The position numbers and the translations under genes are program-made. Below are positions 11,651 through 41,457 of a stretch of 64,000 nucleotides of DNA, piece after piece; position 1 is the first letter of the stretch, and every line of letters begins with the position of its first letter. The DNA comes from Candidatus Uhrbacteria bacterium (lineage in GTDB: Bacteria > Patescibacteriota > Patescibacteriia > UBA9934 > GWF2-40-263). The DNA lies in contig JACPHX010000006.1 in the NCBI GenBank assembly GCA_016188425.1, positions 28,585-92,584 of the forward strand, in the 5' to 3' direction. The notes beneath the pieces were generated by a model. That model saw nothing but the letters and a program-made list of their open reading frames with translations, was not told the origin of the DNA and made no database searches.

Positions 11651-11667
11651 CAATGTTGACTTTTCGT

Positions 11668-11696: not shown

Positions 11697-11754
11697 TCCA
11701 CGGCCGTGCCTAAATCCGCGGCAACGATCACAACCAACAGAGGAGGATACTGGG

Positions 11755-22762: not shown

Positions 22763-23752
22763 TTACGGGATGATTTCGATACTGTTGATCATCATCTGGA
22801 ATGTCTGCAAATAATCGATGGTGGATTTGCCGTCTCCGTCGTAGACCAGGGAATAGGAGCTATTCCCGATGACAACCCAGGCCTTGAGCTGATCCTCGGA
22901 CATGAGCATTGGGTAGCCGTTCTTGGTTTTCGTTTCAAAGATCTTCTCTTGCGGGAATTGCTCATCGTGCCATTTCCGCAAAGAAACGATGTCGTCCTGA
23001 ACGCCCCCCGTGTTTACCGACACGCTCTCTGCGCTTGGGACGACAAATTTTAGCAGAGGTTCCTTCTCGCTTTTCCCATCCACTTTCGTCCAGATCGCGG
23101 GATAGAGCAAACGAATCCCACCCTTTCCAAACGGAACCAGGTCGACGGACTTCACAAGCCCCGTCTGCAACAAAGTGGCGGGGGCGGTCCCGTTGGGATT
23201 GTAGCGGTGGAATACTTCGTTCCCATCCAGGAATCCGTCCTTATCCGTGTCTGGTAACCGAGGATCGGTCTTGTAGATATTATTTTCCTCAACGTCCGTC
23301 AGCCCATCGCTATCGGAATCAATCCCCGGCGTCTTTACCGCGGAGACAGGGGGTTTCACCTCTGGGGGTTTCGGCGGCTCGACGATAGGAGGAACAACAG
23401 GGGGCTTAGGTTGAACGATCGGTGCTGGCTCCGGAGCGAGCCACTTAGGAATAAGAAAAAAGGCGGCGATCCCCCCAGCCACAAGGAACAGAAACAAAAA
23501 CACGACGAAGATCATTTTCTTGGAAGAACCTTTACGAGAAAGCGCAAGGGGCGCAGGAGGCACAGGGGGCGCAAGGGGTTTGGGCGAAGGATGAGGGACT
23601 GGGACGGACGTTTTTGCAGCGGGCTCGACGAGCTTTACCTCGGCTCCGTGGCGGTAAGCGACTGGCATCGTGAAAAGACGCATGCCACCATTGGAAGATG
23701 CGACGGTTTCAGATGCGGGGATTTGAAAGGCCATGGCGCCAGCCCCAGGCAT
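22763..23752 (-). CDS. Membrane protein with Pro-rich N-terminal tail, TM, TSP3-like Ca-binding repeats and C-terminal domain
   Basis: IDSDSDGLTDVEENNIYKTDPRLPDTDKDGFLDGNEVFHRYNP thrombospondin-type-3-like DxDxDG repeats. TM (MIFVVFLFLFLVAGGIAAFFL). N-terminal ...PKPLAPPVPPAPLAL is encoded by a GCGCAAGGG-type DNA repeat. Confidence 0.5.
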   Translation of the reverse strand: MPGAGAMAFQIPASETVASSNGGMRLFTMPVAYRHGAEVKLVEPAAKTSVPVPHPSPKPLAPPVPPAPLALSRKGSSKKMIFVVFLFLFLVAGGIAAFFLIPKWLAPEPAPIVQPKPPVVPPIVEPPKPPEVKPPVSAVKTPGIDSDSDGLTDVEENNIYKTDPRLPDTDKDGFLDGNEVFHRYNPNGTAPATLLQTGLVKSVDLVPFGKGGIRLLYPAIWTKVDGKSEKEPLLKFVVPSAESVSVNTGGVQDDIVSLRKWHDEQFPQEKIFETKTKNGYPMLMSEDQLKAWVVIGNSSYSLVYDGDGKSTIDYLQTFQMMINSIEIIP

Positions 23753-23755
23753 AGG

Positions 23756-24442
23756 TTATGGGGTTACAGGTGCAACAGGAGCCGGAAGAAGCTTCCCTTC
23801 CCCCGCGGGGTTATAGCCGTTTTTTACTTCTGTGCCATCCGCAAACCCATCGCCATCGGAATCGGCATTTTTTGGATTAGTTTTGTATTTCATGATTTCC
23901 TCCCGGTCGGACAACCCGTCTCCGTCGGTATCCGCCACGCTTGGATTCGTCCCGTAAAACGCTTCTTCTTGGTCTGTCAGGCCATCGCCATCCGTATCCG
24001 TAGCGGCCACAGGTGCTGGAGTTGGGGTGGTTATTGGAGCAACTGGAGGAGCTTCTGTCGTCGGTTCCACAACAGGCGGAGTGACTGGCTCTGTGGGAGG
24101 CGCTTGGGTGTTCGGCGGCGCTTGTGGAGCAGGTTGTGGCGTCTGATCGAGAAACGGAATCCCCTTTGACTGTTGTGCCAGCAATGTAAACGCCACGTAT
24201 GCCGCGGCGACAATGACGACTAAAACGCCGACGACAATGAGAATTGCCTTCCATGGGAAACCGCCACGGGAGGACTCTTCCAGGGGCGCAGGGGGCGCAA
24301 GAGGCACAAGGGGCGCAGGGGGTTCGGAAGGGAGGGGGACGGGAGACGGGAGGCGGGGAGCGGAGGGCGTTGGCAAAGCGGGAGGGGCTTCTGTGGTGTC
24401 CGCGAACATATCTTCGGGCTCTGGGGTGAGTTGGTCGGGCAT
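23756..24442 (-). CDS. Membrane protein with TM and three TSP3-like repeats; ends ...NGYNPAGEGKLLP...
   Basis: Paralogue of the downstream gene; DTDGDGLTDQEE..DTDGDGLSDREE..DSDGDGFADGTE. Start uncertain: the ORF extends to 24490 through a repeat arm. Confidence 0.5.
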   Translation of the reverse strand: MPDQLTPEPEDMFADTTEAPPALPTPSAPRLPSPVPLPSEPPAPLVPLAPPAPLEESSRGGFPWKAILIVVGVLVVIVAAAYVAFTLLAQQSKGIPFLDQTPQPAPQAPPNTQAPPTEPVTPPVVEPTTEAPPVAPITTPTPAPVAATDTDGDGLTDQEEAFYGTNPSVADTDGDGLSDREEIMKYKTNPKNADSDGDGFADGTEVKNGYNPAGEGKLLPAPVAPVTP

Positions 24443-24443
24443 A

Positions 24444-24601
24444 GGGGGAAGGGTGACCAAGGGTGAACAAGAGAGAACAAGGGTGAACAAGGGGGGGAAT
24501 TAGTAGGACGTTAACAATCAGAACAAATGAAACAAATCATTTTCATGTTTTTATAAAACTATTCGCTTCCTCCCCTCTTGTTCTATCTTGTTCACCCTCC
24601 T
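24444..24601. repeat. CAAGG-type short-tandem-repeat element, inverted pair (GGTGAACAAG units) flanking a 69-bp AT-rich spacer
   Basis: gggtgaccaagggtgaacaagagagaacaagggtgaacaagg ... cctcttgttctatcttgttcaccctcc. Confidence 0.6.
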
Positions 24602-24607
24602 ATTCTA

Positions 24608-25450
24608 TCACAACCTCCCCGGCCCGGCAGGGCTGTAGCCGCTGCGGACTTCGTCGGCATCTTGGTACCCGTCGCCGTCGGAGTCGACATTCGTGTCGCT
24701 GGAGCCGTATTTTGCTTCGGTATAGGCGTCCAGACCATCACCGTCGCGGTCGCCAGAGCCGACGATGTCCAGACAATCAATACGAATCAGCTCCAGGGCA
24801 ATCTCTTTGCAAAAGTCTGGATTGCGCGCCGCGATGGCCGCCTGTTTCTTGGACAAGCCATCACACACGTCTGCCGGACGGTTCATCTGGTTGCATTGAT
24901 CGATGGTAAGCCCCGTAAAGAAAAACGACTCGCAAGAGACACGACTCGCCTCATCTTTGATGTTCGCGCAGGCATCAATCTTCAACCCATTCGTCGCTTG
25001 GGCGCGATATTGCAGATCGGCACACGCATCTTTCGATTCCTGGGTCGAAAGCCCTTCGCAGGCCGACGCATCCATAGACGCATTCGCCGCTTGCCAAAGG
25101 CACGCATCCTTGAGGTCCGCCGCCAAGTCCTTGCAGGCCCCCACCTTCCCCTGCCCGCCCATGGCTTCCGCTTTCAAACGATCGAGGCAGGCCTGGCGGT
25201 CTATGGCAGCATCACATTCCTGTCCCGATACCTGAGACGCCGCTTGCTGTGCCGCTTCTTTCACGGAGCGCTGCGTGGCGCGCCGGGAGAAGAAGAAAAT
25301 CATCCCAACGACGAGAAGGGCAACAACAAACACCGCCACGCCTACAAGCACAAACGTGCGGCGTCGGGGACCCCCCCAGGCCCCCCCTTTAGGAAGGGGG
25401 GGACTAAGGGGGGGTTCCCAGGCATTGTCGTAGAGCGGTTGGTTGTCCAT
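24608..25450 (-). CDS. Single-pass membrane protein with Cys-rich ectodomain and C-terminal TSP3-like repeats (ends SGYSPAGPGRL)
   Basis: TM VLVGVAVFVVALLVVGMIFFF; many Cys; DRDGDGLDAYTE..DSDGDGYQDADE. Stop lies 3 nt downstream of the giant gene's stop, read in the direction of transcription. Confidence 0.5.
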   Translation of the reverse strand: MDNQPLYDNAWEPPLSPPLPKGGAWGGPRRRTFVLVGVAVFVVALLVVGMIFFFSRRATQRSVKEAAQQAASQVSGQECDAAIDRQACLDRLKAEAMGGQGKVGACKDLAADLKDACLWQAANASMDASACEGLSTQESKDACADLQYRAQATNGLKIDACANIKDEASRVSCESFFFTGLTIDQCNQMNRPADVCDGLSKKQAAIAARNPDFCKEIALELIRIDCLDIVGSGDRDGDGLDAYTEAKYGSSDTNVDSDGDGYQDADEVRSGYSPAGPGRL

Positions 25451-25453
25451 AGA

Positions 25454-28400
25454 TTAGCGGGCCGGGCATGCCGCGGCGCTGACGTTGGAGATGGTGCATC
25501 CGGTGGGACAATCGGCCCGGATATTTATAGGAATCGATGAAACGCCGTCACAGCCCAGAAGTCCCGCAGGAATCGGAATGATTTGTCCGACCCCTTGCGT
25601 CAGGATCCCAACCGATTGCACCGTGTTCCCATCCCTATCCTTCCCTGTCACCGTGACGCTAAACGGCGAGAAAGAGTCGACAATGAACCTGGCGGCGGAG
25701 ATGAATACGCTCTGCGTCCAGGCGGTGTAGGCGTATTCCACGCCGGTGTTTGGCCCGCAGACGCGCGGCGAAGAAAGATCTGTCGATGTGCGGTAGTGCT
25801 GCAGCTGGGTTTGGGTCGGAGTGGTAGGCGACGCGTTCCCCCAAGCGCACAGGTCATTGGTGACGGAAGCCATGACGCCCGCTCGCTCGACTCCCGCCGT
25901 ATCCACCAAAGGATCCATTGTATTCGTGATCGTGAGGGAATACACGCGACGGGCAGGGTTCTTGAGACTGCCGTCGGGATTCTTCACGATGTTCACCAGG
26001 TTCCAGGCAGGAGAGTCTACCGGATCTGAATCGGAGACGATAATCATGACCTGATCCGCCGAACCCGAGAACATGCCATTGGCCACACTCACCCCCGCGT
26101 TGACAAGCGCACTTCCCGCCGCATCTGCCCCGGTGAGGTTCACGACTTTGTTTCTTGCCAGATTGGTATCCGCATCGAGCGCCTGACCGACCGCGGCTCT
26201 GTCACCAAATACCGCCAACCCCACTCGCAAGATTTTCCCAGACCCCTGCCATCGATTCCGCATCAAGTCGATTTGCGCCGCCACCGCATCTCCCGCCTCC
26301 TGCAGACGGGTAGAGCCCCCGAACGCCCTGGACATGCTCGCGGTCTTATCCAGCACGAACACGACATCCGTGTCATGGGGCGCGGGGGCGCCCGGGATGC
26401 GAACGTCCATGGTGAGGGTACTCAACACGGAACACACGGGGAGAAACACTTTCGCATCGTTGGGGAATTGCCCCGAGGCCTGGCTGAAGAGCGTCACGGA
26501 ATCGACCAAGGTGGAGTTTACGATTTCTGGGAGCATCCGAGCTTTTTGGGAAGTGAACACGGGTGGGCAGGTAGACGCGCAATCACCGGCGCATTTGGCA
26601 ACGACGCAGACTCCTCCGCCTCCTACGCAACTCGGGTCCAGCAGGGCGTCGACGCTCGCATCGCGCACACAACGCATCCCCACATTCGTTCCTCCATCAC
26701 AATAGCCGATTTCTTTACAACTTGTGCCGACCGTCGAACATGCTCCGCCTGGGAACGTACAGGCCCCTCCCATCAAAACACCGGGGGACGGAAAAGTAAT
26801 GATCCCGGAACAAATCCCGGCGCTATTCGCCGCCATCAATCCGTCGCAAAGTTCGGTCCCTTCAATGACATTGTTTCCACAAAACGCCCCCGTCACCGTT
26901 TCAAAGCGGCAGTCTCGGGTACAGCCCGTACACACGCCGCCGTAGGGGGCGTTGCAGCCGTTCCCGTTTTGGCTGCCGTTGTCGCAGGATTCGACTCCTA
27001 AATTCACGACATTGTCGCCGCAGACGGCTGTTTTACAGCTATTAGTACATCCATCGTTGTCGTTTCGATTTCCGTCATCGCATTCTTCGGTGCCGGTCTT
27101 CCGCCCGTCGCCGCAATACTGACCGCCGCCGTTTGGTGAACCAACACGATCATATCCTTTGCAGGCATTCGCTCCAGAGGTCGAACAAGTCAATGAATAC
27201 TGGATTGGATACGTTTGAGCGGAACACGATCCTCTCACATAATCGGCATCTCCCGGAACACCCTTGTCGCAATTTTGCGGGATGGAACAGATCCCTCCTA
27301 TCTTCACTGGATCCCCCTGATCACAGACATTTGAAAGGACAGGAAACACGCAGGGTGTTGTGTCGACAGGACAATCGGCCACGCCATCACCTGTACAATA
27401 ATTCGTCGGATCCAGTTCACAATATCCCACCGGCTCTTTTGCATATCGTGTTGCCGGATCATTCGGATCGCAAATTTCATTGTTCGCCGTCTGCACCAGC
27501 CCGTCCCCGCACGACGGACCGACGCCGCGGCAGTCCGCGGCGCACGCAGAACCATACTCGCCGTTTCGCAATGTCCCGCAATGCGCCGCCGTTGCCCAGC
27601 CGCCCAGCGCGGTACTGAACAGGCCGCCGCAGTCACAACTCTCACCAGCGTCCAAAGTTCCATCTCCACAGATGTTCCGCTGTGTCCCCGTCGCGATCTG
27701 ACAATCGGAGGGGCAGTGGCCGTAGGTGCCGTTGAGGAAACCTTCGTCGCAATCCTCGTCTTCATCCGGCACGCCGTTGCCGCATTGGTAGGCGACACAG
27801 GTGGCGGAGGAACCGGTATCCGTTGTGAAGGCGCAGACATTCTGGGTCATGGGGGTACAGGCGGCGCCGGAGACGCCACAGGTGCCGCTTCCCAAACAAT
27901 TGGAGTCGGACACGCAATGCAACCCATCTCGAATTCCACCCGAACAAATCTTGCAATTGGCAGCGACAGCACACGCTCCAAAACTCGGATCTCCTCCACA
28001 GAACAATGTTGCACAATAGAGCGACGCGCTTTCGCAGTCAGCCGTTGTTGTACAGGAACGTTGGTAGGGTAATTGACCAGGAGCGAACGTGACGGCGCAC
28101 AATCCCGCCGTGGGTGCACACGGGACGAGTTTGTGTCCGTCCTTTTCGACCGACCGATCACAGGTAATGCTTGGACAATCGGTCGCCTGCGTCGCCACCG
28201 TACATGTCGTGTTCGCAGCAGCCGTCCCCCCGACGCATTTCAAGGTCGCCGGATCACAGCTTCCTCCAGGCGTCGTCGCGCAATCTGTTGCCTCGGAACA
28301 ATACGACCCGTCGCGCGTCCCTCCTTTGCAATACCCAAGCTTACAATCTACCGGTTTAATCTGCCCGACTTCACAAAACTCATTCGCCCCTTGGATGCCG

Positions 28401-31400: not shown

Positions 31401-34400
31401 GCCGATCCTTCATTGAGGCAGCGAGAAGAACATCCGTCGCCATTGATGACATTCCCATCATCGCACTCTTCCGGCGCATCTAAAGATCCGTTCCCGCAGG
31501 CGGCGTTTTCTATGCCTATATGGATACACGTAGGTCCGCAGCCAAACGGCAGCGGCCCGCCCGAAAAGGCCGCATCGCAATCTTCCCCCGCTTCAACCAC
31601 GCCGTTTCCGCAATGCGGATCGGTTATTTTAATAAGACTTCCTGTGTGTAAACAGCTTCCCGCACACCCGGCCGGGAGCGAAGCACCTATGGTCAATGTC
31701 GAATCGACCGTAGCAACATCCACGTTCGCATCTGCGGGCGGCACATCGACGTCCGCGCTGCTCCAAGGGGACCACGCCACGTTTGTTTGGAGATATTGCC
31801 CGGTAGGAGAACAGGCATCCGGTGCGCTCTTGGGGAGGCCGATGAATAGCTGCGTATCCCCTATCGATGTGGTTTGCGCCGCCTCCGGCCGCACTTCAAC
31901 GCTCGCCACGTCGCAGCGATCCCCTGTTCCGCTGGTCTTGAACACCCAGGAATAGTCATTGGTATAGCCGTGATTCTGATCGTCGTTGGATCCGTCAATG
32001 GATAAGGCAACGCCGCCGCTGGCATCCGTGATGTTGCCAGAGACGACCACGCGGTAGAACGTATCGGCAATCAGGGAACTGTTGAGGTTGATCCCCACTT
32101 CGCGGCAACCGCTCGCCGCCGGCGAGGTATCCAGACAGACGGGAGTCACGAGATACGCATTGCGATTAATGCGCGCCGCATCGCCATCGACGCACAATTC
32201 ATTCGGACATTGCCACAGGGAGTAATTCCCGGTGGTAAGGGCCTGGGTCGAGTTCATCTCCGTATTGAAACGGACGCCCGCGCTCGCATTGATGCAGGCC
32301 TCGCCGCAATCCGGCCACACATGCTCAACCTGCGGGTTGGGAAACTCCACCGTGATATCTGCCTGGCCGCCGACGGGGGTCGTGATCCCTGTGAGCAAGG
32401 CCACGATATGGGCAGGATCGGGATTGGTTTCCGCAAGAGCGGTGGCGGTGTTATCAAAATTGGTATCAGCCGTGACGACGGAAACGGATCCGGATTGGGT
32501 GCTGGACCAGGCAAATGAATAGGCCGCCGGATTCAGAACCAGACAGCGACCTGCCATGGGCAGTGCGTCATAATCCTGTGTCTTCGCTACAGAAGCAAGC
32601 GTTGTATCTGCGGGAGACACAAGTACGCCGCTGACGTCGCAATCTGTCCCGGCACGAACTTTGAAACGGAAAATGTAATCGCTTCCCAGTTTTTCCCCAA
32701 GCTGCGGGGGAACATCGATAGCCTTAAACAAGTTGCCTCTGAGAGTCACCCTGTAGGTGCTTCCAGCCGCAAACGGAGTCGCGGGCGTCCATAAAAAGAC
32801 TTTCGGTTTTGGATCAGAAGGAGGCGAGACAGCAAATGTCCCCGTCACGGGCGAAACCGTGTCACAGGGGTCATCCCCCGTATCCGTACACGTATCCACC
32901 GCGACGGCCGCGCCGTTAAAGGTGGTCAAATCCATCTTGGTTGTGAACTCCACCCGGATGATCGACGTGGTACAAGCATCCTCTCCCCACGCATCCCACG
33001 GGGAAGGCGATACAACCCGCTTGTCATCCGATGGATTGAGGGTACCGCGCGTGTCGATGGAACACTCTTCCAAGACGCGAGGAATGACAGGCAAGGGCCC
33101 CGTTGCAAACTGATACACAAAACTCGCGGCCACGGGTTGTTTGCACACATCCGCACAACTCCCGTCCGCACAGCACAAGTAGCCGATGCCAAACCCATGG
33201 CAATAATCCGCACTCTCTTCCCGGCAGTCGCTCACCGAAAACGGCAAAGGGTTGCTCGTATAACCGGCTCCCGCCGTTGTCGCCGTGACGGCACCCGTTG
33301 TCGCGCCGACCGGAACTTGCGCCCCGCTGATTTCATCGTTATCCCACGCCGCCACCACGGCAGGAACTCCATTGAAAAAATCCACCGTCCCCGTCGTCGT
33401 CCCAAGATTCTCGCCGTCCAGTTTAACAACGCTACGATTCGCCGCCGTCCATTCAGGCCCCGAAACGGGTGTCAATTTGCACAAAGCCGGCCCAGGTTGG
33501 TCATCGATGACCGTGAATGGCGCCGGGCCAGAACTCTGCGCGTCGGAAGATCGTTGCACGAAAATGTTATGGGTAAGGTATTCGATGGGATCCGGCGGAG
33601 CCACATACGTCGTCGGCACCTTCACAAGAATGGTGCTGTCGTTCCAAAGAGCCGCCCCGCACGCCGGTGGAAAATCTGTATCAGCCAAGGCGAAGACGCC
33701 CCCCCCTTTGTCAAAAGTAACCGTTCCTCCGAATCCGAAATGCGATCCAAGAATGGTGACATACTGCCCTGGTGGCCCCCAATCATTCACTTCCGCGCAA
33801 GAAATGGACGCCCCGCAATCCGCCACGGCATTGGCGACGGAGCAATGCGCTCCATCATTCGCTCCACCTGCACACGCATGCCAGCCAGAGACGACTTCAT
33901 TGATGACCGGCGGGTTGGCATCGGCATCCTGGGTAAAGACAAGTGGGTTGGATCCTTGTCGGAGCGGAAGGCAGACCCCGTCCGCAGGCGCGCACCGGTC
34001 GGTCGCCGAACAAAGTTCTGCCGTATTGATAGAACAGGCGTCCTCCCCAATAAACATCCTCACGTAATGCGATCCGGAACTCAAGAGCGGAGCCGTGGCG
34101 GTGGCGGACGTGCTGGACCATGTGGCTGTGTTGTAGGAAGTCGCTCTTGATGCATCGAAATAGACGGTCGAAGAAGCCGTATACGTCGAACCGAAATTCT
34201 TTCCAGAAAGCGTGACGCTGGACTGCCGCGGCCCGGTGGAAGGACTGATGGAACAAAGCCCGGGACGGACAATCGTGTTCACGTCAAAATCCGCAATGTG
34301 CGGGCCGTAGGTATCATCCGTCTGATCCGTTTTTGTCGGGTCGTCCCCCCGAAGGACTTCGATGGGGCCATCAACCGCTCCCACGGGAACCTCCACGACG

Positions 34401-35911
34401 ATCAACCGGTCCCCCCATTGCGGAGAGCCGCTGCAGACCGCGGCTGATACGGTCTTCTCGTCACCAGAAACAGGTGATCCTAAGAAAACCACTGTGCCCG
34501 CGCTCGCGGTTGGGCCGAAATTGCGGCCGATGATGCTGATGAGGTTTCCGACGGCTCCGTCTCCAGGCGTCACCTGGTCGATCCGCGGCCGCGTGTCTGC
34601 GGCACAGACGCCGGCGACGCACACTTCGTCCGTGCCGCAATCCGTATCGACGGAACAGGCGCCTCCTACGCATGCGCCGCAGTAATACTGGCTGGTCGTG
34701 CTTCCGCCGCAGTTCAGCTCGGTCTCGCCCAAATCCGTATCGATGGCGAGGTTGTTGCAATTGGCCGCGCGCAGGAACACCCTCGACGTCGTACTCGTCT
34801 CATTCGCCGCACAATCAAACCCCTTCATCCCGATCGTATACTGGCGGTTGGTCATGTACCCCGCCGCATCCCACTCCGATCCGTCATCGAAAAACAAACG
34901 CTCCGTGGTCGGGAACGGCTGCCCCGCAACGGGGAATGAATCGCTCGTCGAAAGGTCGGAGGAGGGGGTGAACAAGGTTCCATTGACGGAAAAATCGACG
35001 GCGTCTACCCCGACATCATCTTTGGTATAGGCCTGCAGGTCGATCGGGAACCCCCCCGCAAACACCACCGTGCCGTCCGCGGGCGCGTCGGCATGAACCG
35101 TGGATGGCGGAGCCGTGTCTATCGTTGCCAATGGGTCTATGGCAAACGAATACGTGCAGGGATGGGTCACGTCGCACACCAATGCCCAGCCGTTAGTTGA
35201 ACGGAGGATGGAAGGATCTGCCTTCACCGTATAACTCGTATCCGCCGGCAGACACGGAACCCCGGAACAGGTATTGGCGGGGGTAAACGTTACCCTCGAC
35301 CCAACGAGAGAAAACGTTCCTGGAACATCGTCCGACGTTGCGTCATCAATCACCCGCAACCCGCCGACAAGGGTGCTGTCTGGCAGCTGGATCCTGCTCA
35401 TCTCCGGGGGTCTCGTAAAAGAAAACTGGAGCAGCGTATTGGAAACGAATTCAAAACAATCTACGTTGAGCGGATTAAGCTGGAAGGAACGGCCCGGGGA
35501 CGGAGGGAATACCGGGTCTCTAGCCGGCTCCGATGAAGTCGTTCCCCCGCTGATCGCCGATGACAGGCGGCTGATGACAAAACTCGCAATCCCGTAGGCC
35601 CCCAAAATGAGAACGAGCCCGATCAGTCCGTTTCGAAGGATATCCCTCCCCTTCTTGACCCGCTTCTGATCACCGGCGGAGGTAAGGAACACCCATCCGC
35701 CCCACAGCACGATGAGCACTGCCAAAACTCCCAGGAAACCCAACAGGACGCTGATCAGTTTTGCGACGATCAATGGCACGCTGTCATTCACCCCCAGCCC
35801 CGCGATGTTCGCGAACGTGCCGGTAAGGCCGAAATTCGTTTGCGCCAACGCCACTTGCGGCATAAGCAGCAGAAGGAGTGGGAACAGACGAATGAGAAGG
35901 CGCTTGATCAC
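25454..35911 (-). CDS. Giant (3485 aa) surface protein: signal peptide plus TrbC/VirB2-like pilin membrane module, Ig/IPT-like regions, Myxococcus-type Cys-rich repeats (CGxGxxExGEECDDGN..GDGCS..C), C-terminal vWA domain with MIDAS
   Basis: N-terminus MIKRLLIRLFPLLLLLMPQVALA|QT...VLIVLWGGWVFLTSAGDQKRVKKGRDILRNGLIGLVLILGAYGIASFV. Cys repeats lie in roughly the second quarter of the protein plus a second cluster nearer the C-terminus. vWA DVVFVLDKTASMS...IIVSDSD at ~25860-26370. Confidence 0.7.
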   Translation of the reverse strand: MIKRLLIRLFPLLLLLMPQVALAQTNFGLTGTFANIAGLGVNDSVPLIVAKLISVLLGFLGVLAVLIVLWGGWVFLTSAGDQKRVKKGRDILRNGLIGLVLILGAYGIASFVISRLSSAISGGTTSSEPARDPVFPPSPGRSFQLNPLNVDCFEFVSNTLLQFSFTRPPEMSRIQLPDSTLVGGLRVIDDATSDDVPGTFSLVGSRVTFTPANTCSGVPCLPADTSYTVKADPSILRSTNGWALVCDVTHPCTYSFAIDPLATIDTAPPSTVHADAPADGTVVFAGGFPIDLQAYTKDDVGVDAVDFSVNGTLFTPSSDLSTSDSFPVAGQPFPTTERLFFDDGSEWDAAGYMTNRQYTIGMKGFDCAANETSTTSRVFLRAANCNNLAIDTDLGETELNCGGSTTSQYYCGACVGGACSVDTDCGTDEVCVAGVCAADTRPRIDQVTPGDGAVGNLISIIGRNFGPTASAGTVVFLGSPVSGDEKTVSAAVCSGSPQWGDRLIVVEVPVGAVDGPIEVLRGDDPTKTDQTDDTYGPHIADFDVNTIVRPGLCSISPSTGPRQSSVTLSGKNFGSTYTASSTVYFDASRATSYNTATWSSTSATATAPLLSSGSHYVRMFIGEDACSINTAELCSATDRCAPADGVCLPLRQGSNPLVFTQDADANPPVINEVVSGWHACAGGANDGAHCSVANAVADCGASISCAEVNDWGPPGQYVTILGSHFGFGGTVTFDKGGGVFALADTDFPPACGAALWNDSTILVKVPTTYVAPPDPIEYLTHNIFVQRSSDAQSSGPAPFTVIDDQPGPALCKLTPVSGPEWTAANRSVVKLDGENLGTTTGTVDFFNGVPAVVAAWDNDEISGAQVPVGATTGAVTATTAGAGYTSNPLPFSVSDCREESADYCHGFGIGYLCCADGSCADVCKQPVAASFVYQFATGPLPVIPRVLEECSIDTRGTLNPSDDKRVVSPSPWDAWGEDACTTSIIRVEFTTKMDLTTFNGAAVAVDTCTDTGDDPCDTVSPVTGTFAVSPPSDPKPKVFLWTPATPFAAGSTYRVTLRGNLFKAIDVPPQLGEKLGSDYIFRFKVRAGTDCDVSGVLVSPADTTLASVAKTQDYDALPMAGRCLVLNPAAYSFAWSSTQSGSVSVVTADTNFDNTATALAETNPDPAHIVALLTGITTPVGGQADITVEFPNPQVEHVWPDCGEACINASAGVRFNTEMNSTQALTTGNYSLWQCPNELCVDGDAARINRNAYLVTPVCLDTSPAASGCREVGINLNSSLIADTFYRVVVSGNITDASGGVALSIDGSNDDQNHGYTNDYSWVFKTSGTGDRCDVASVEVRPEAAQTTSIGDTQLFIGLPKSAPDACSPTGQYLQTNVAWSPWSSADVDVPPADANVDVATVDSTLTIGASLPAGCAGSCLHTGSLIKITDPHCGNGVVEAGEDCDAAFSGGPLPFGCGPTCIHIGIENAACGNGSLDAPEECDDGNVINGDGCSSRCLNEGSAAARTTCGDGHVAYSAAVGGEECDDGNRFNGDGCSSICLHEGTIAMSAAALIGICGNGTQEPGEDCDDNNAVDGDGCSSLCLNEGLRICDATHLTNCCGDPPGAGVAVVDPGEDCDDGNYTSGDGCSMNCLAEGSSSTYTTPSFCGDKATGIGEECEYAGTAVFTPAFTLAKIDLNAAVELDPLTKIATSTITAEANTVKGTAKYSVSCTCTDDTQCIDPDPSLPPVYACAETGCCYPRPTIVSSFPPLSGTPQICRNADIFVNFDQPMAEDLLDENVHLELVGGTCPAGYLTAEAVPNTWYAKAWHHIVSSFRWLFGYSVSAQSSVCYLPITFEVVDWVDTLPDPDAIYEKAQMHIKLSQALEPTAAGQTYQLVINTDDGDPATKIGLLSEHGVGLPKEAGGVHVIPFTTTSELCKVEQVVVQDLGDRAALPAAGNPRLPLHSQVFRKTNEEHRLLSTAFTLNQTQPLQSITGVYAWTYAWTILPSDSSAVFGNDADPDYATNDQYRRYTALGKTGEGTAMASASIFEGTDTTPSKVVNGSVDLFAPLCEQPYYFRDTDSALDDGTTFDPGESDPTYYQFFYCADVGDPASTADDLPRLEYVHVATPVTARGVFKESLYIANQTFVDEMNVSHVVKTDALGVKVLGNPGYLSAMDWYRVQNFQGSPQPIKIDGYDAVRDGNTAYIAAPTLGDDNKLHPNIFVVTTNPNAGDVAVQIFNQAIANWKFNTNVESFNVCVGMGTAAIATDADGKPVGCSWDGDCGDRQYCGADKPKLRRDTVRLTELLKMEDAIRTVAQRNGHCEVRSDIACRFDFECPIGEACLPSIPALSEGTFIRAQSVSRWPSWQAQLGNLVGGTLPIDSINRFSSCDSSGGFNPDPETCFDSTAGKFACAPGSHIYAYQGVGSTAYHLVGMLEYGDYPWSENIDQDTNDYSSLRAEYNVLHGYCNGATCVGGNRGGEDCTVGGNAACVDDPPASVPDGFYPNSFCQGTVVGASAICGDGIQGANEFCEVGQIKPVDCKLGYCKGGTRDGSYCSEATDCATTPGGSCDPATLKCVGGTAAANTTCTVATQATDCPSITCDRSVEKDGHKLVPCAPTAGLCAVTFAPGQLPYQRSCTTTADCESASLYCATLFCGGDPSFGACAVAANCKICSGGIRDGLHCVSDSNCLGSGTCGVSGAACTPMTQNVCAFTTDTGSSATCVAYQCGNGVPDEDEDCDEGFLNGTYGHCPSDCQIATGTQRNICGDGTLDAGESCDCGGLFSTALGGWATAAHCGTLRNGEYGSACAADCRGVGPSCGDGLVQTANNEICDPNDPATRYAKEPVGYCELDPTNYCTGDGVADCPVDTTPCVFPVLSNVCDQGDPVKIGGICSIPQNCDKGVPGDADYVRGSCSAQTYPIQYSLTCSTSGANACKGYDRVGSPNGGGQYCGDGRKTGTEECDDGNRNDNDGCTNSCKTAVCGDNVVNLGVESCDNGSQNGNGCNAPYGGVCTGCTRDCRFETVTGAFCGNNVIEGTELCDGLMAANSAGICSGIITFPSPGVLMGGACTFPGGACSTVGTSCKEIGYCDGGTNVGMRCVRDASVDALLDPSCVGGGGVCVVAKCAGDCASTCPPVFTSQKARMLPEIVNSTLVDSVTLFSQASGQFPNDAKVFLPVCSVLSTLTMDVRIPGAPAPHDTDVVFVLDKTASMSRAFGGSTRLQEAGDAVAAQIDLMRNRWQGSGKILRVGLAVFGDRAAVGQALDADTNLARNKVVNLTGADAAGSALVNAGVSVANGMFSGSADQVMIIVSDSDPVDSPAWNLVNIVKNPDGSLKNPARRVYSLTITNTMDPLVDTAGVERAGVMASVTNDLCAWGNASPTTPTQTQLQHYRTSTDLSSPRVCGPNTGVEYAYTAWTQSVFISAARFIVDSFSPFSVTVTGKDRDGNTVQSVGILTQGVGQIIPIPAGLLGCDGVSSIPINIRADCPTGCTISNVSAAACPAR

Positions 35912-35923
35912 AAACGATGAAGG

Positions 35924-37726
35924 TTAGTAAGGCAGTCCGCCACCCAAAGGAGCCGCCGCATTGCAGGCACCGGAACGAGCCGTCAAAAGAGGTGACGGCT
36001 CGGTTCCCTCGCTGCAACAGTTCGGGTTGGTCGAATCGCTGGCGCACACAGGAAGCGTTCCTCCGCTCAAAGCCGGATACATACAAAACTGATTGGATCC
36101 TTTCAATCCATGGGTGATTTCCTGGAAATACGCCAATCCTCCATCCATATCTGAAATAAGGGGAGGATGTTCAATGAGAGCAATGTTGGGAGTGATGCCA
36201 AGCGCTCCGGTAAACCAGACCGAGTAATCTGGAAGAGAGGTGGAGGGATGGAAAATCAGGTTTGAATTACTTACGGTGGAAGGTTGCAGATTTCGATTAA
36301 ACGTAATCGTGATGGGATCATTCAGACTGGCAAATGACTTGTTGATGGCCGGGCTCAATCCGACCACCGCTGGCGTGGCTGTATCGATGAAGTTTGTTGT
36401 TGTAAATGACCAAGGAAAATCGTCACCAGCAGTTCCATCCCCTCCAATGACACCGCCATCAAGCGAGTTTCCTGCCGCATCCACGACCCCGTCATAGGGG
36501 ACGACGGACTGAACGGTATTGGTGGGATCAATCGACGTATCGATGGTCGCCGCGGTCGCGAGACCCGAGATGGTTGCCGCCCCTGGAAGGCAATAGACCG
36601 TGTTCCCGCACGGATCCGTCGCACATCCCTGGGCAGGGATAAACTCGACCGTGCGATACCCGTTGCTGATTTGCCAAACCCCCACCACGGGCGTGCCTCC
36701 GTTGTCTAACACAAGGTTTGTAAACGGAAGCGTGTGTCCTGTCGTTGCCACCGGATTCATGGCCTCGTTGAACGTGATCGACGCAATGGTATTTTTATCG
36801 ACCGCAGGCGACGACGGCGCCGGGACCCGCGACACCACATACGGAGGAGTCAGGTCGACCGTGGTTCCAACCTCGAAGGTCCAAGAGTAGCCAGCTGGGT
36901 ACCCAGCAAACGCATCCGCCGTATCGTCTTTTTTGATATCCGAAGTTAGATGCACGGTATAGTTGGTGTCCTGCACACCATCACCCAGCCAATTCACCGG
37001 ATCAAACGTATACACTTTGTGATCCTTCGTGACGAACACCTTGACGTCCGCGGGAAGAAACTTAGAAGTGATGTCGGCTGATTTGAAAAACTCCACCGAA
37101 GTATCGGCTATTTGGCCGGATCCGGATCCGTCCCCGTTATCGACGAACCCAACCATAACCGTGTTGGGGTCGACGGCCTCTTTGAAGGTGAGGAAAACGT
37201 TTGTATTCCTCGCCACATCAAGCGCGCCCCGGGGCGGATAGTGATCCTGCACGATCCCCAGCCCAAGCGGGCCGGAGAGCGGATCCGTATACCGGCCAGC
37301 CAGATCCGTCCGTGTGCCCACACCCGTCAGGACATTTACGCCCAGCAGGCGGAAGATGAATACGACGATGGCCCAGGATGCCAAAATGATGATAAGGCCG
37401 ATGACCGCATTTTTGAGCACGTTGCGGCCCTGCTCTACCCGACGTGCGTCCCCCGCCGACGTCATGATGACGTACCCGGCATACAAGATCATGACAACGG
37501 CGATGATGCCGATAATGCTCAAGAAGGCGAGAATCAACAGTTCGATGATTTCAATAAGCGGCCGCTGCCCCAAGAGCGTCGCCTGCGTGCCAACCTGTTC
37601 GAGCGCAGACGATTGGGCCAGGGCCGGAGACGCAGAAAAAAAGAAGCCAAAGATACCAAAAGCAACCGAACCAAAAAGGGAACGAAGCGTCCGTGTCCGT
37701 AAATGAAGAAAAGAAAAAACGCGCAT
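35924..37726 (-). CDS. 600-aa surface protein: signal peptide plus the same TrbC/VirB2-like pilin module, followed by bacterial Ig-like (Big_5-type) domains
   Basis: SASPALA|QSS...ILYAGYVIMTSAGDARRVEQGRNVLKNAVIGLIIILASWAIVVFIF; 12-nt gap to the giant gene. Confidence 0.65.
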   Translation of the reverse strand: MRVFSFLHLRTRTLRSLFGSVAFGIFGFFFSASPALAQSSALEQVGTQATLLGQRPLIEIIELLILAFLSIIGIIAVVMILYAGYVIMTSAGDARRVEQGRNVLKNAVIGLIIILASWAIVVFIFRLLGVNVLTGVGTRTDLAGRYTDPLSGPLGLGIVQDHYPPRGALDVARNTNVFLTFKEAVDPNTVMVGFVDNGDGSGSGQIADTSVEFFKSADITSKFLPADVKVFVTKDHKVYTFDPVNWLGDGVQDTNYTVHLTSDIKKDDTADAFAGYPAGYSWTFEVGTTVDLTPPYVVSRVPAPSSPAVDKNTIASITFNEAMNPVATTGHTLPFTNLVLDNGGTPVVGVWQISNGYRTVEFIPAQGCATDPCGNTVYCLPGAATISGLATAATIDTSIDPTNTVQSVVPYDGVVDAAGNSLDGGVIGGDGTAGDDFPWSFTTTNFIDTATPAVVGLSPAINKSFASLNDPITITFNRNLQPSTVSNSNLIFHPSTSLPDYSVWFTGALGITPNIALIEHPPLISDMDGGLAYFQEITHGLKGSNQFCMYPALSGGTLPVCASDSTNPNCCSEGTEPSPLLTARSGACNAAAPLGGGLPY

Positions 37727-37803
37727 GGGATATCTTCATTTTACAACATCTCGGCGCGCAGGGCGAGGAGAGACCCCATGTGGACAAGATTGTTACGACC
37801 CCC

Positions 37804-38547
37804 CTACATCATCTCCATGATCCGCGCGGACACCACGACAAACACCGCCATCACAAGCACGCTTCCCAAGATTCCCATAAAGACCTGTTTTTTAGCTTTT
37901 GTATACGTCTCATCCGCTCCACTTGCCACCATCCAATTGAAAGACCCCAGAAGGACCAGGTTCGCACAGACAATTCCCATCATAAGAACAAGCACCCGCG
38001 CGCTCCGAAGGAGCATGAGCCCGCTTTCTTTCCCAGCGGAGACCGCGGAAGCGGCAAACGTTTGATCGGCAAAAGCGAGCGCTCCGACTGATACAAGAAC
38101 GAACAAAGGAAGCAACGACTGCACGAGGTCACGCACCCGTCCGCCATCCGCCCTGCCCGCGACCGCCTTCATGGCGATCCCCATCGCCTTTCCAAAATCC
38201 GCCTTGCTGCTCGCCCCAGAGGCCGCAAGCGATTCTTGCACGATCGCGCGCAATTCATCTTCCGGAAGTTGGGCGGGGAGATACGCCTCCAACAGCAAAA
38301 TTTCCCCTTCTGCCTTGGTGACCAATTCTGCGCGGCCTGCGCCGCGGGCGATCTCCAACGCTTCCTGCAGCTGCTTGAGCTGCCCCTTGACGATCGCCAA
38401 CGTTTCCTCGTCTGTGAGCGGATGCATCAGTTCGATTTGGCGGTTCTTGAGCGCCGATTTCAACAACCGCAGGGTAGAAACCCGCTCTGCCTGCTGTGCC
38501 TTATAGGCCGTCTTAAAATCGGCATCGATGCGCTCAAGGATAGTCAT
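37804..38547 (-). CDS. YqeY (GatB/YqeY domain) protein fused in-frame to a C-terminal TrbC/VirB2-like pilin module
   Basis: Residues 1-~150 match B. subtilis YqeY (...GASSKADFGKAMGIAMKAVAGRADGGRVRDLVQSLL). No stop follows; reading continues into PLFVLVSVGALAFA|DQT...LLGSFNWMVASGADETYTKAKKQVFMGILGSVLVMAVFVVV. Confidence 0.55.
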   Translation of the reverse strand: MTILERIDADFKTAYKAQQAERVSTLRLLKSALKNRQIELMHPLTDEETLAIVKGQLKQLQEALEIARGAGRAELVTKAEGEILLLEAYLPAQLPEDELRAIVQESLAASGASSKADFGKAMGIAMKAVAGRADGGRVRDLVQSLLPLFVLVSVGALAFADQTFAASAVSAGKESGLMLLRSARVLVLMMGIVCANLVLLGSFNWMVASGADETYTKAKKQVFMGILGSVLVMAVFVVVSARIMEMM

Positions 38548-38988: not shown

Positions 38989-39043
38989 AGAGATGATTTT
39001 TATCCTTAATATGGCGTTAGAATGCCCGTCCCTCTGGAACCTG

Positions 39044-41421: not shown

Positions 41422-41457
41422 ATACCCAACTCATCGGTTGGGTATTTTTTATGGTGG
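41422..41457. terminator. Bidirectional terminator hairpin (aaaaaatacccaactcatcggttgggtatttttt)
   Basis: Perfect stem flanked by A-run and T-run, between the convergent PLDc_N gene and tRNA-Val. Confidence 0.6.

What the first reader, a model, noticed from the sequence alone, without database searches (positions are those of the whole stretch)
22763..38547. ~16-kb minus-strand surface-protein locus: three consecutive proteins share a TrbC/VirB2-like pilin membrane module, followed by three TSP3-repeat membrane proteins
A ~60-aa module is repeated in three adjacent genes. Each has a cleavable signal peptide (AxA|Q or AFA|D), hydrophobic helix 1, a (T/A)S(A/G)(G/A)D turn, a basic stretch (xRVxxGRxxL / KAKKQVF) and hydrophobic helix 2. 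The three carriers are the YqeY fusion (37804-38547), a 600-aa Ig-like protein (35924-37726) and a 3485-aa giant (25454-35911). Intergenic gaps are 12 and 3 nt. Immediately after come three membrane proteins with thrombospondin-type-3-like DxDxDGxxDxxE Ca-binding repeats; two of them end in a shared GY(N/S)PAG(E/P)G(K/R)L motif. The two-helix layout resembles conjugative/T4SS pilins (TrbC/VirB2), and similar pilin-like N-termini on very large surface proteins are reported for some small-genome episymbiont bacteria. No VirB4/VirD4/VirB6 genes are present in this window. This looks like a dedicated giant-adhesin (attachment) system that uses a pilin-like anchor, and I do not recognise it as a described operon.
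Basis: partly seen in the sequence, partly recalled or inferred. Interest (0 to 1): 0.85.

Follow-up and report, generated by a model that had tools for sequence, protein, structure and literature searches.

The report
Giant surface proteins on pilin-like anchors
An uncultured ultra-small bacterium (Candidatus Uhrbacteria) has a conserved operon in which a pilin-like membrane hairpin, known from type IV secretion systems, anchors a 600-residue and a 3,485-residue surface protein; this use of a known pilin family has not been described.

Summary
Six co-directional minus-strand genes lie between rpsU and ybeY.

**Pilin module.** Three genes carry one copy each of a two-helix membrane module, Pfam PF18895 (T4SS_pilin). 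This is the VirB2-like pilin family already described in Patescibacteria. The 600-aa protein (M) scores 38.7 bits and the 3,485-aa giant (G) 25–28 bits. The copy at the C-terminus of YqeY (S) is remote, but profile-profile comparison gives 97.7 %, E 2e-12.

**TSP3 genes.** Three single-pass Ca-binding TSP3 proteins follow.

**Origin.** The window is from a Candidatus Uhrbacteria MAG (GTDB class ABY1). The locus is not an island. The block lepB-hisS-rpsU-yqeY-M-G-TSP3-ybeY-dgkA-ftsA-ftsZ recurs in all 12 related loci and in 61 of 80 metagenome loci.

**New elements.**
- Huge ectodomains are grafted onto the pilin hairpin.
- The locus sits among housekeeping genes.
- YqeY::hairpin is a precursor-like fusion with a conserved internal signal-peptidase site (Ala at −1 in 52/56).

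**T4SS link.** No T4SS gene is nearby. Two genomes carrying the locus are listed as lacking VirB4.

**Best reading.** This is a hairpin-anchored adhesin or envelope complex that works without a T4SS. Display on a pilus remains a live rival. Fold searches did not discriminate. I rate it a new variant of a known kind.

The parts
38734..39069 (-). rpsU (ribosomal protein S21) ORF. It marks the upstream boundary, and the classical rpsU-yqeY pair is retained.
   Evidence: The translation contains '...VKRRRNESFEGVLRRF...'. Orthologous loci have PF01165 S21 genes at this position. The exact start codon was not determined.
37804..38547 (-). S: the YqeY::hairpin fusion (247 aa). It has a cytoplasmic YqeY domain, an internal signal-peptide-like segment and a cargo-less pilin-like hairpin.
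   Evidence: Pfam YqeY 141.6 bits; PF18895 22.8 bits. 56 fusion orthologues were found. AF2 pLDDT is 88.
38110..38547 (-). YqeY domain of S (aa 1-146).
   Evidence: PF09424 covers aa 5-146.
38053..38109 (-). Internal signal-peptide-like segment of S (aa 147-165). It has a short hydrophobic core followed by ALAFA|DQTFA|A.
   Evidence: Across 56 orthologues, position -1 is Ala in 52 and Ser in 2. Position -3 is a small or aliphatic residue in 56/56, with Pro/Ser at -4. The AF2 model has a low-pLDDT hinge here.
37807..38025 (-). Hairpin module of S (aa 175-247).
   Evidence: hhalign against short PF18895 pilins gives 97.7 %, E 2.4e-12. The S-type HMM hits only PF18895-type ORFs. Free-standing 81-86-aa versions exist in L013 and L014.
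35924..37726 (-). M: a 600-aa protein with a signal peptide (to ALA|Q, aa 37), a PF18895 hairpin, three Big_5 Ig-like domains and a Cys-containing C-terminal region.
   Evidence: Orthologues of 525-1,163 aa occur in 54 of 80 metagenome loci.
37322..37564 (-). Hairpin module of M (aa 55-135).
   Evidence: PF18895 38.7 bits against GA 26.6. AF2 predicts a helical hairpin, H21-52/H58-97 of the 98-aa model, pLDDT 83.
25454..35911 (-). G: a 3,485-aa giant with a GTG start, a signal peptide (ALA|Q, aa 23), a PF18895 hairpin and a 3,370-aa ectodomain. The ectodomain holds Big_7, TIG, Big_5, five or more Cys-rich DUF4215/TIGR02232 repeats, a roughly 1,000-aa unannotated region and a C-terminal VWA domain. 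It contains 178 Cys.
   Evidence: Orthologues of 1,600-3,635 aa follow M in all related loci.
35561..35785 (-). Hairpin module of G (aa 43-117).
   Evidence: PF18895 scores 25.2 bits on the full protein and 28.4 bits on the N-terminal 350 aa. It is 40 % identical to M's module, E 1e-19.
26012..26368 (-). VWA domain near the C-terminus of G (aa 3182-3300).
   Evidence: PF13519 VWA_2 scores 28.5-32.8 bits.
24608..25450 (-). p280: a single-pass (N-in) membrane protein. Its ectodomain is Cys-rich and helical (12 Cys), with TSP3 repeats and a ...GYSPAGPGRL end.
   Evidence: Orthologues of 279-291 aa lie directly after G in L011 and L012.
23756..24442 (-). p244: a single-pass membrane protein with a Pro-rich linker and three TSP3_bac repeats. 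The mechanical ORF extends to the TTG at 24490, but orthologues indicate the ATG at 24442 as the start.
   Evidence: PF18884 76 bits.
22763..23752 (-). p329: a single-pass membrane protein with a conserved cytoplasmic 'F(T/V)MP..YRHGA' motif, a Pro-rich linker, two TSP3 units and a conserved C-terminal domain of about 130 aa of unknown fold.
   Evidence: It has 445 homologues in Uhrbacteria/Patescibacteria. It always sits just before ybeY.
22147..22662 (-). ybeY, the downstream boundary of the block. It is followed by dgkA, ftsA and ftsZ.
   Evidence: PF02130 120 bits.

Best explanation
This is a vertically inherited surface-protein operon of Candidatus Uhrbacteria (GTDB class ABY1).

**M and G.** M (600 aa) and G (3,485 aa) are exported by Sec and cut by signal peptidase I after AxA. 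They are then held in the cytoplasmic membrane by an N-terminal VirB2-like (PF18895) helical hairpin. The short N-tail is outside, helix 1 crosses inward, a basic loop (TSAGDxxRVxxGR) sits in the cytoplasm, and helix 2 crosses outward. From helix 2 the ectodomains project away from the cell. These are Ig-like, disulfide-rich and end in a VWA domain; they measure 470 aa in M and 3,370 aa in G.

**S.** S is a cargo-less paralogous hairpin. In this lineage it is made as a YqeY::hairpin precursor and most likely released by signal-peptidase cleavage at a conserved internal signal peptide.

**Assembly and function.** The three hairpins associate side by side in the membrane, as pilin subunits do in their membrane pool, and form the base of a giant fibre. 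The three single-pass TSP3 proteins are Ca2+-binding partners that brace it or link it to the wall. The complex serves attachment to a host cell or surface, or envelope architecture. It does so without extraction of the hairpins into a T4SS pilus.

**Shown:** family membership, topology signals, domain content, tight gene spacing, deep conservation of gene order, and absence of T4SS genes nearby.

**Inferred:** cleavage of S, lateral association of the hairpins, adhesion, and independence from a T4SS.
For: **Family membership.**
- PF18895 matches all three proteins. G also scores 28.4 bits on its N-terminal piece.
- NF045849, a pilin-like conjugal-transfer protein, hits M and G.
- Profile-profile and HMM cross-recognition with zero off-targets tie S to the family.

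**Topology.**
- Signal peptides and two hydrophobic helices around a K/R-rich loop are present.
- AF2 predicts hairpins.

**Extracellular cargo.** Big_5, Big_7, TIG, DUF4215/TIGR02232 and VWA domains, with 178 Cys in G.

**C-terminal extensions are tolerated in this family.** P0123 is one signal peptide followed by six hairpins joined by external linkers.

**Operon-like spacing.** Gaps of 12, 3 and 3 nt.

**Conservation.**
- The same order recurs in L002, L007-L015 and L017.
- 61 of 80 metagenome loci have this context.
- All 6 loci that extend past G have TSP3 genes next, and 5 of those then have ybeY.

**Internal signal peptide.** Ala at -1 in 52/56 and a small residue at -3 in 56/56.

**No T4SS link.**
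- No T4SS genes in the window or among large neighbours of M-G loci.
- The published table lists GCA_001791305.1 (= L008) and GCA_001790825.1 (source of P0051) as VirB4-negative.
- Only 18 of 36 Uhrbacteria in the part of the table read are VirB4-positive.
Against: - No expression, localisation or binding data exist.
- VirB4 absence rests on draft MAGs and on another group's HMM thresholds. T4SS genes may lie elsewhere in this genome, since only 64 kb of a 112-kb contig was seen.
- The module is a canonical member of a family whose short members sit in essential T4SS clusters. A pilus role is therefore the default expectation for the family.
- Adjacency of the TSP3 genes could reflect the generally frozen gene order of this lineage rather than function.
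- Cleavage of the YqeY fusion is inferred from sequence only.
- A complex of exactly three hairpins is speculation. Most relatives have only M and G.
Confidence: 0.5

Rival explanations
1. **Modular T4SS pilins.** S (where present), or another short PF18895 pilin encoded elsewhere, is the shaft subunit of a VirB2-type pilus built by a chromosomal T4SS. M and G enter the filament through their homologous hairpins and display their ectodomains at the tip or along the shaft. This would be the T4SS counterpart of the modular type IV pilins.
For: - M and G carry canonical PF18895 modules.
- The family lies next to virB4 in 1,135 assemblies and is essential in S. epibionticum.
- The cargo is attached to the C-terminus, which is outside the membrane.
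- Three adjacent paralogues resemble the published 2-11-gene pilin arrays.
- The best-probability Foldseek hit is a conjugative pilin, 8dfu, with prob 0.69, TM 0.53/0.60, but E 1.5.
- A functional precedent exists: S. sanguinis PilB carries a vWA module on a type IV pilin (PMC8179133).
Against: - No T4SS gene lies within 64 kb here, nor within +/-10 kb in about 60 related loci.
- Locus-bearing genomes are listed as VirB4-negative, and VirB4 is present in only half of the Uhrbacteria examined.
- Most relatives have no cargo-less hairpin in the locus.
- Free S proteins lack a signal peptide.
- Packing a 3,370-aa cargo on every subunit is sterically implausible, so at most single copies could be incorporated.
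Confidence: 0.27
2. **Envelope or division scaffold rather than adhesin.** M, G and the TSP3 proteins are structural components of the cell envelope, for example wall-spanning fibres or S-layer tethers. Their conserved position next to ybeY-dgkA-ftsA-ftsZ and lepB/LytR would reflect a housekeeping role in envelope growth.
For: - The block is universal, strictly vertical and syntenic in a large clade and sits among core genes.
- It shows no sign of horizontal transfer in base composition.
- Ca-binding TSP3 repeats and Cys-rich repeats are typical of structural matrix proteins.
Against: - VWA and Ig-like arrays are more typical of ligand-binding adhesins.
- The neighbouring genes are functionally unrelated, and their order is conserved across the whole region, so position says little.
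- Nothing distinguishes this reading from adhesion computationally.
Confidence: 0.15
3. **Generic signal-anchor.** The three 'modules' are unrelated hydrophobic hairpins that resemble pilins only by composition.
For: - Pairwise S versus M gives E 1.7.
- Only 5 of 56 fusion proteins hit PF18895.
- There are no PDB sequence relatives.
Against: - M versus G gives E 1e-19.
- M is above the Pfam gathering score.
- hhalign gives 97.7 % with the loop motifs aligned.
- Both HMMs hit only each other's family among 3,016 and 2,580 ORFs, which include many other membrane proteins.
- An independent NCBIfam pilin-like model also hits.
Confidence: 0.04

Closest known systems
VirB2-like pilins (Pfam PF18895, T4SS_pilin) and their tandem arrays in Patescibacteria T4SS loci (Wang et al. 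2023, PMC10633639; Quinonero-Coronel et al. 2025, PMC12102498)
   Same: - The sequence family is the same.
- The layout is the same: signal peptide, helix, (T/A)xGD-basic loop, helix.
- Several divergent paralogues are encoded side by side.
- The host phylum is the same.
   Different: - Published members are short proteins of about 125-160 aa, often beside virB4.
- Here the hairpin carries ectodomains of 470 and 3,370 aa, and a third copy is fused behind cytoplasmic YqeY.
- The locus sits among housekeeping genes with no T4SS gene nearby.
- Genomes with the locus are listed as VirB4-negative.
Modular type IV pilins, e.g. Streptococcus sanguinis PilB (pilin module + vWA module; PMC8179133)
   Same: The concept is the same: a functional adhesive module, including vWA, grafted onto the C-terminal, outward-facing end of a pilin module.
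   Different: - The pilin superfamily is unrelated: type IV pilins have a class III signal peptide, an N-methylated N-terminus and a single N-terminal helix.
- No PF07963/N_methyl signature is present here.
- Processing is of the signal peptidase I type (AxA).
- The cargo here is up to ten times larger.
Classical TrbC/VirB2/TraA conjugative pilins (PF04956) and archaeal Ced/Ted pilins (e.g. PDB 8dfu)
   Same: They share the two-helix hairpin with both ends outside and the loop inside. The best-probability Foldseek hit is 8dfu.
   Different: - The PF04956 match is not significant (14 bits, E 0.06).
- No fold-search hit is significant.
- Classical pilins carry no cargo. Some are cyclised head-to-tail, which would preclude cargo (from memory).
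Mycoplasma ICE 'Mbov_0395 family pilin-like conjugal transfer protein' (NCBIfam NF045849)
   Same: The 80-aa hairpin profile matches M (E 1.4e-9) and G (E 3.9e-7) across nearly its full length. It comes from a monoderm MPF-FATA-type context, like the Patescibacteria T4SS.
   Different: - Scores are just below the curated cut-off (37.5 against 40).
- The ICE protein is a stand-alone component of a mobile element.
- This locus is chromosomal, non-mobile and cargo-bearing.
Myxococcus TSP3/VWA adhesion proteins (CglD, MtsC/MtsD)
   Same: Ca-binding thrombospondin-type-3 repeats, a VWA domain and 'myxo' Cys-rich acidic repeats (TIGR02232) occur together in one cell-surface adhesion context.
   Different: - Matches cover only the repeats (scores 17-39 bits against cut-offs of 350-800).
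- Anchoring and architecture differ.
- There is no orthology.

Membership tests
PF18895 T4SS_pilin (Patescibacteria VirB2-like pilin) | Match to the family HMM at or above the gathering score (26.6 bits) | tested here: met
   M scores 38.7 bits. G scores 25.2 bits on the full protein and 28.4 bits on its N-terminal 350 aa. S scores 22.8 bits, below the cut-off, but is linked by hhalign at 97.7 %, E 2.4e-12 and by reciprocal HMM hits with no off-targets.
PF18895 T4SS_pilin (Patescibacteria VirB2-like pilin) | Sec signal peptide followed by two hydrophobic helices joined by a short basic loop | tested here: met
   In S the signal peptide is internal. In the free S proteins of L013 and L014 it is absent.
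PF18895 T4SS_pilin (Patescibacteria VirB2-like pilin) | Small stand-alone protein (about 125-160 aa) with no other domain | tested here: not met
   M is 600 aa, G is 3,485 aa and S is fused to YqeY. Typical members in the same scan have a median length of about 135-164 aa.
PF18895 T4SS_pilin (Patescibacteria VirB2-like pilin) | Encoded in or next to a T4SS cluster (virB4, virB6, virB3/prgI) | tested here: not met
   No T4SS genes lie in the 64-kb window or within +/-10 kb of related loci. The paper itself finds only 1,135 of 1,948 assemblies with pilins near virB4. The rest of this genome was not available.
PF18895 T4SS_pilin (Patescibacteria VirB2-like pilin) | Polymerises into an extracellular pilus | not testable with these tools
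   According to the 2025 review, this has not been shown experimentally even for the short family members; it speaks only of a 'potential to elaborate conjugative pili'.
PF04956 TrbC/VirB2 classical conjugative pilin | Significant match to the family HMM | tested here: not met
   M scores 14 bits, E 0.06, against a cut-off of 27.9. G and S give no hit.
PF04956 TrbC/VirB2 classical conjugative pilin | Specific structural similarity to solved conjugative pilins | tested here: inconclusive
NCBIfam NF045849 Mbov_0395 pilin-like conjugal transfer protein | Score at or above the curated cut-off (40 bits) | tested here: not met
   M scores 37.5 bits and G 29.6 bits. They are related but not equivalogs.
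Type IV (class III signal peptide) modular pilins | N-terminal prepilin-peptidase motif / N_methyl domain | tested here: not met
   No PF07963 hit was found, and the cleavage motifs are AxA, i.e. signal peptidase I type. This is a functional analogy only.
PF18884 TSP3_bac repeat proteins | Match at or above the gathering score (25 bits) | tested here: met
   p244 scores 76 bits with three repeats. p280 (17.3 bits) and p329 (17.8 bits) are below the cut-off individually. They contain DxDxDGxxDxxE units, and their orthologues carry PF18884 hits.
PF09424 YqeY | Full-length match to the YqeY domain | tested here: met
   141.6 bits over aa 5-146.

The most novel reading that the evidence does not exclude
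The PF18895 hairpin may be a self-sufficient assembly module. S, M and G, or M and G alone, could polymerise or bundle without any VirB4-type machine. The result would be a new kind of membrane-rooted fibre carrying a 3,400-residue adhesin, the principal host-attachment organelle of a large Patescibacteria clade. The shaft or base subunit would be produced by an unusual route: signal-peptidase cleavage of an internal signal peptide out of a fusion with the cytoplasmic housekeeping protein YqeY.
Probability: 0.15. Interest if true: 0.85.

Novelty: new variant of a known kind. Interest (0 to 1): 0.6.

Why it matters
Patescibacteria are a large share of bacterial diversity. Where cultivated, they live attached to other microbes. 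Apart from type IV pili in Saccharibacteria, how they attach is largely unknown.

This locus shows three things:
- The VirB2-like pilin family, so far discussed only as short T4SS pilus subunits, is also used as the membrane module of very large, adhesin-like proteins.
- This happens in a core, vertically inherited operon of a whole clade (Uhrbacteria/ABY1).
- This use appears to persist in genomes without a T4SS ATPase.

The consequences are practical:
- It gives a concrete candidate for the attachment or envelope structure of this uncultured group.
- PF18895 hits should not be counted as evidence of a T4SS pilus without checking protein length and context.
- It offers a natural test of whether VirB2-type hairpins can function outside a T4SS.
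- The YqeY::hairpin fusion, with its conserved internal signal-peptidase site, is a rare bacterial example of a possible polyprotein-like membrane precursor.

Tried and rejected
- **Module-only homology search.** The word-indexed search with the 94-aa module found only 2 hits. It was replaced by a full HMM scan and a metagenome scan.
- **Metagenome scan with G's C-terminal 398 aa.** No relative was found.
- **PDB sequence searches with module profiles.** Only chance TM or designed-protein hits came back.
- **Promoter/terminator consensus scan.** It found no more sites than shuffled sequence, so it gives no operon evidence beyond gene spacing.
- **Extending the contig.** Look-ups of proteins at the window ends failed, so the rest of the genome could not be searched for a T4SS.
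- **M versus G ectodomains.** There is no significant similarity beyond the hairpin, so G is not simply an expanded M.
- **Pfam scan of large neighbours of 15 short-pilin arrays.** It was intended as a positive control for T4SS adjacency. No T4SS family appeared among the 25 families listed of 43. This is inconclusive because the list is truncated.
- **Mobile island or horizontal acquisition.** Rejected, because composition is uniform and synteny is conserved.
- **Assembly or frameshift artefact as the cause of the YqeY fusion.** Rejected, because 56 divergent orthologues keep the same architecture.


Full report
**1. What is there**

The region holds six co-directional minus-strand ORFs exactly as described:
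- a 247-aa YqeY fusion (37804-38547), here called S;
- a 600-aa protein (35924-37726), M;
- a 3,485-aa protein (25454-35911), G;
- three smaller proteins: p280, p244 and p329.

The gaps are 77, 12, 3, 117 (or 165 from the likelier ATG start of p244) and 3 nt.

Pfam scans of 46 ORFs across the 64-kb window show that everything around the locus is housekeeping. Upstream lie lepB, hisS and an unannotated rpsU ORF. Downstream lie ybeY, dgkA, ftsA, ftsZ, nrdR, htrA and pyk. Elsewhere are der, pth, dprA, topA, relA, parAB, scpAB and aminoacyl-tRNA synthetases. There is no VirB4, VirD4 or VirB6, and base composition is uniform.

**2. The shared module**

M and G share a clearly homologous N-terminal module (40 % identity over 95 aa, E 1e-19). 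The module is Pfam PF18895, 'T4SS_pilin':
- M scores 38.7 bits against a gathering score of 26.6.
- G scores 25.2 bits on the full protein and 28.4 bits on its first 350 aa.
- The C-terminal part of the YqeY fusion scores 22.8 bits.

An independent curated model, NCBIfam NF045849 (a Mycoplasma ICE 'pilin-like conjugal transfer protein'), also hits M (E 1.4e-9) and G (E 3.9e-7), just under its cut-off. The classical TrbC/VirB2 model does not match significantly (14 bits, E 0.06).

The S module is too diverged for pairwise detection (E 1.7), and only 5 of 56 orthologues reach PF18895 on their own. Profile methods settle the question:
- A profile of the 56 orthologous C-terminal modules aligns to a profile of bona fide short pilins with 97.7 % probability, E 2.4e-12. 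The 'GGFxYMTxSGRD' and 'GGFLWMTAxGDE' loops are in register.
- An HMM of the S module hit 171 of 2,580 ORFs in 80 metagenome loci. All 171 are PF18895-type ORFs, and none is another membrane protein.
- In the window itself only the three proteins carry the module.

**3. Structure**

AlphaFold2 models the module as a long helical hairpin (pLDDT 83). It models the fusion as a YqeY domain, a low-confidence hinge at the AxA site, and a hairpin (pLDDT 88).

Pilin identity therefore rests on sequence-family membership and on the literature for that family, not on structure.

**4. What is already known about the family**

PF18895 proteins are the 'VirB2-like pilins' of Patescibacteria. Quinonero-Coronel et al. 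2025 report:
- detection in 1,948 assemblies;
- location next to virB4 in 1,135 of these;
- 441 tandem arrays of 2-11 genes.

A series of such pilins inside the T4SS cluster is essential in Southlakia epibionticum (Wang et al. 2023). A 2025 review describes only a 'potential to elaborate conjugative pili'.

A full HMM scan found 62,836 representative proteins with the module. Typical members are about 125-160 aa.

None of the papers that mention the family discusses cargo-bearing members or a YqeY fusion. No paper combines giant proteins or DUF4215 with these bacteria in this sense.

**5. Source and conservation**

S and p329 are 100 % identical to proteins of a Candidatus Uhrbacteria MAG on a 112-kb contig. 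Uhrbacteria belong to GTDB class ABY1.

The locus is strikingly conserved:
- In L002, L007-L010, L013-L015 and L017 the order is lepB-hisS-(rpsU)-yqeY(::S)-M(614-641 aa)-G(3,305-3,460 aa).
- L011 and L012 show G (3,509-3,635 aa), a TSP3 protein of 279-291 aa, a TSP3 protein of 220-240 aa and a 351-354-aa protein, followed by ybeY-dgkA-ftsA-ftsZ-nrdR-htrA-pyk.

A metagenome scan with the module profile returned 80 loci:
- 61 have this housekeeping context.
- 54 contain an M-ectodomain homologue (525-1,163 aa), normally followed by a G of 1,600 to more than 3,467 aa.
- Each M and G carries a single N-terminal module.
- All six loci that extend beyond G have TSP3 genes next, and five of those then have ybeY.
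- The other 19 loci are short-pilin loci, 15 of them arrays of three to ten genes.

The sample is biased towards modules similar to M. Even so, it shows that the M-G pair is a widespread, vertically inherited core feature of a large clade and not an island.

**6. The third hairpin and the YqeY fusion**

In most of the wider family, yqeY is unfused and M follows within 7-60 nt, with no S gene.

In the window's sub-clade a cargo-less hairpin appears in two forms:
- as a separate 81-86-aa gene 6-8 nt after yqeY, lacking any signal peptide (L013 and L014; in L013 a single in-frame TAG separates it from yqeY);
- fused to YqeY, in 56 cluster representatives at 37-57 % identity.

The fused form contains an extra segment with every hallmark of a cleavable signal peptide. 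It has a 12-15-residue hydrophobic core, Pro/Ser at −4 to −6, a small residue at −3 in 56/56 and Ala at −1 in 52/56 (plus 2 Ser). The flanking residues vary freely.

Topologically this segment is needed to carry the chain from cytoplasmic YqeY to the outside, where a pilin N-terminus belongs. Its conservation suggests that signal peptidase I releases a free hairpin. Cleavage itself is an inference.

**7. Cargo and partners**

M has three Big_5 Ig-like domains.

G has Big_7, TIG and Big_5 domains and at least five Cys-rich acidic DUF4215/TIGR02232 repeats. It also has about 1,000 residues without any family match and a C-terminal VWA domain. It contains 178 cysteines. The ectodomains of M and G are not detectably related to each other.

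p280, p244 and p329 are single-pass, N-in membrane proteins with Pro-rich linkers and TSP3 Ca-binding repeats. The shared 'GY(N/S)PAGxGxL' ending is the tail of the last TSP3 unit and is conserved in orthologues. p329 belongs to a family of 445 proteins with a conserved cytoplasmic motif and a C-terminal domain of unknown fold.

**8. Relation to a T4SS**

No T4SS gene occurs in the window, in the flanks of the related loci, or among the large neighbours of M-G loci. Those neighbours are RelA/SpoT, UvrD, TopA and similar.

The published genome table (Table S1) gives further evidence:
- GCA_001791305.1 (the source of L008) is listed as VirB4-negative.
- GCA_001790825.1 (the named source of P0051) is listed as VirB4-negative.
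- So is an assembly with the same organism name as L002.
- Of the 36 Uhrbacteria in the part of the table I read, 18 have VirB4 and 18 do not.

These are draft MAGs, so absence is not proven. Still, the locus looks universal while VirB4 looks patchy.

**9. Interpretation**

The best-supported reading (about 0.5) is that the VirB2-like hairpin has been taken over as the membrane module of two large surface proteins. After Sec export and signal-peptidase cleavage, the hairpin sits N-out, loop-in, C-out and the ectodomain projects outward. The paralogous hairpins, including S where present, associate in the membrane. The TSP3 proteins act as Ca-dependent partners. The complex mediates attachment or envelope architecture without pilus extrusion.

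Rivals:
- The main rival (about 0.27) is that M and G are modular T4SS pilins displayed on a VirB2-type pilus. This would be analogous to the vWA-bearing type IV pilin PilB of S. sanguinis (PMC8179133).
- A purely structural envelope role (about 0.15) cannot be separated from adhesion computationally.

One supporting observation is that natural poly-hairpin proteins exist: one signal peptide followed by six hairpins in P0123, and 16 modules in P0160. The C-terminus of a hairpin can therefore be extended outside the membrane, and hairpins work side by side.

**10. Verdict**

The module belongs to a known, published pilin family, and tandem paralogues are known. The following have not been described, as far as the searchable literature shows:
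- the grafting of very large ectodomains onto the hairpin;
- the deeply conserved housekeeping-embedded operon with TSP3 partners;
- the apparent independence from T4SS genes;
- the YqeY::hairpin precursor-like fusion.

I rate it a new variant of a known kind, with interest about 0.6.

Noticed in passing
window 38053-38109 (aa 147-165 of the YqeY fusion); alignment A2: There is an internal, signal-peptide-like segment between cytoplasmic YqeY and the hairpin. Across 56 divergent fusion proteins, position -1 is Ala in 52 and position -3 is a small residue in all 56. This suggests a polyprotein-like precursor cut by signal peptidase I. lepB lies three genes upstream in all loci.
   Followed up: partly
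L013 10001-10699; L014 436-1148: Close relatives have an unfused yqeY followed 6-8 nt later by a free 81-86-aa hairpin gene that lacks any signal peptide. In L013 a single in-frame TAG separates the two ORFs, so fusion and fission of this pair has happened within the clade.
   Followed up: partly
P0123 (552 aa), P0160 (1,775 aa), P0271 (1,147 aa) and many others: Single polypeptides contain 2-16 tandem PF18895 hairpins. P0123 has one signal peptide and six hairpins joined by short external linkers. I found no mention of such 'poly-pilin' proteins in the papers read.
   Followed up: partly
Supplementary Table S1 of PMC12102498, part 11: VirB4 is reported in only 18 of the 36 Uhrbacteria genomes listed there. 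Nearly all Woesebacteria and Wolfebacteria in the same part are positive. Two genomes shown here to carry the M-G locus are listed as negative.
   Followed up: partly
L007/L008 3289-9471: In one Uhrbacteria lineage a type IV pilus gene set is inserted between hisS and rpsU, immediately upstream of the yqeY-M-G block. It comprises an N_methyl pilin, T2SSE/PilB, T2SSF/PilC, four unknown genes and a prepilin peptidase.
   Followed up: no
L019, L023, L026, L028, L032, L033, L034, L040, L046, L054, L056, L065, L089 (upstream of M): In 13 M-G loci a RelA/SpoT-family gene (482-510 aa) on the opposite strand sits directly upstream of M. Most of these loci lack yqeY between hisS and M.
   Followed up: no
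window 38734-39069 (-): A ribosomal protein S21 (rpsU) ORF lies in the 496-nt 'gap' between hisS and yqeY. The start codon is unclear.
   Followed up: partly
window 1-2520 (-): Two Cys-rich secreted-type proteins with MopE metal-binding motifs and teneurin-like EGF repeats lie at the window start. They are further disulfide-rich surface proteins in the same genome.
   Followed up: no
window 9074-9478 (-); 15593-15670, 41452-41528, 55926-56338: tmRNA (115.6 bits) and five tRNA genes (Asp, Val, Met, Leu, Met). The mechanical ORF at 9226-9573 overlaps the tmRNA and is probably not a gene.
   Followed up: no
window 13130-15316 (+) and 11647-12978 (+): A 728-aa protein has only weak coiled-coil family hits, and a 443-aa protein has no Pfam match. 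Both are uncharacterised.
   Followed up: no
window 22763-23752 (p329) and 445 homologues: This protein family has a conserved cytoplasmic N-terminal motif, F(T/V)MP..YRHGA, and a conserved C-terminal domain of about 130 aa ending ...DYLQTFQMM(I/L)NS. Neither matches any family. One source names a member 'cytoskeletal protein RodZ'.
   Followed up: no
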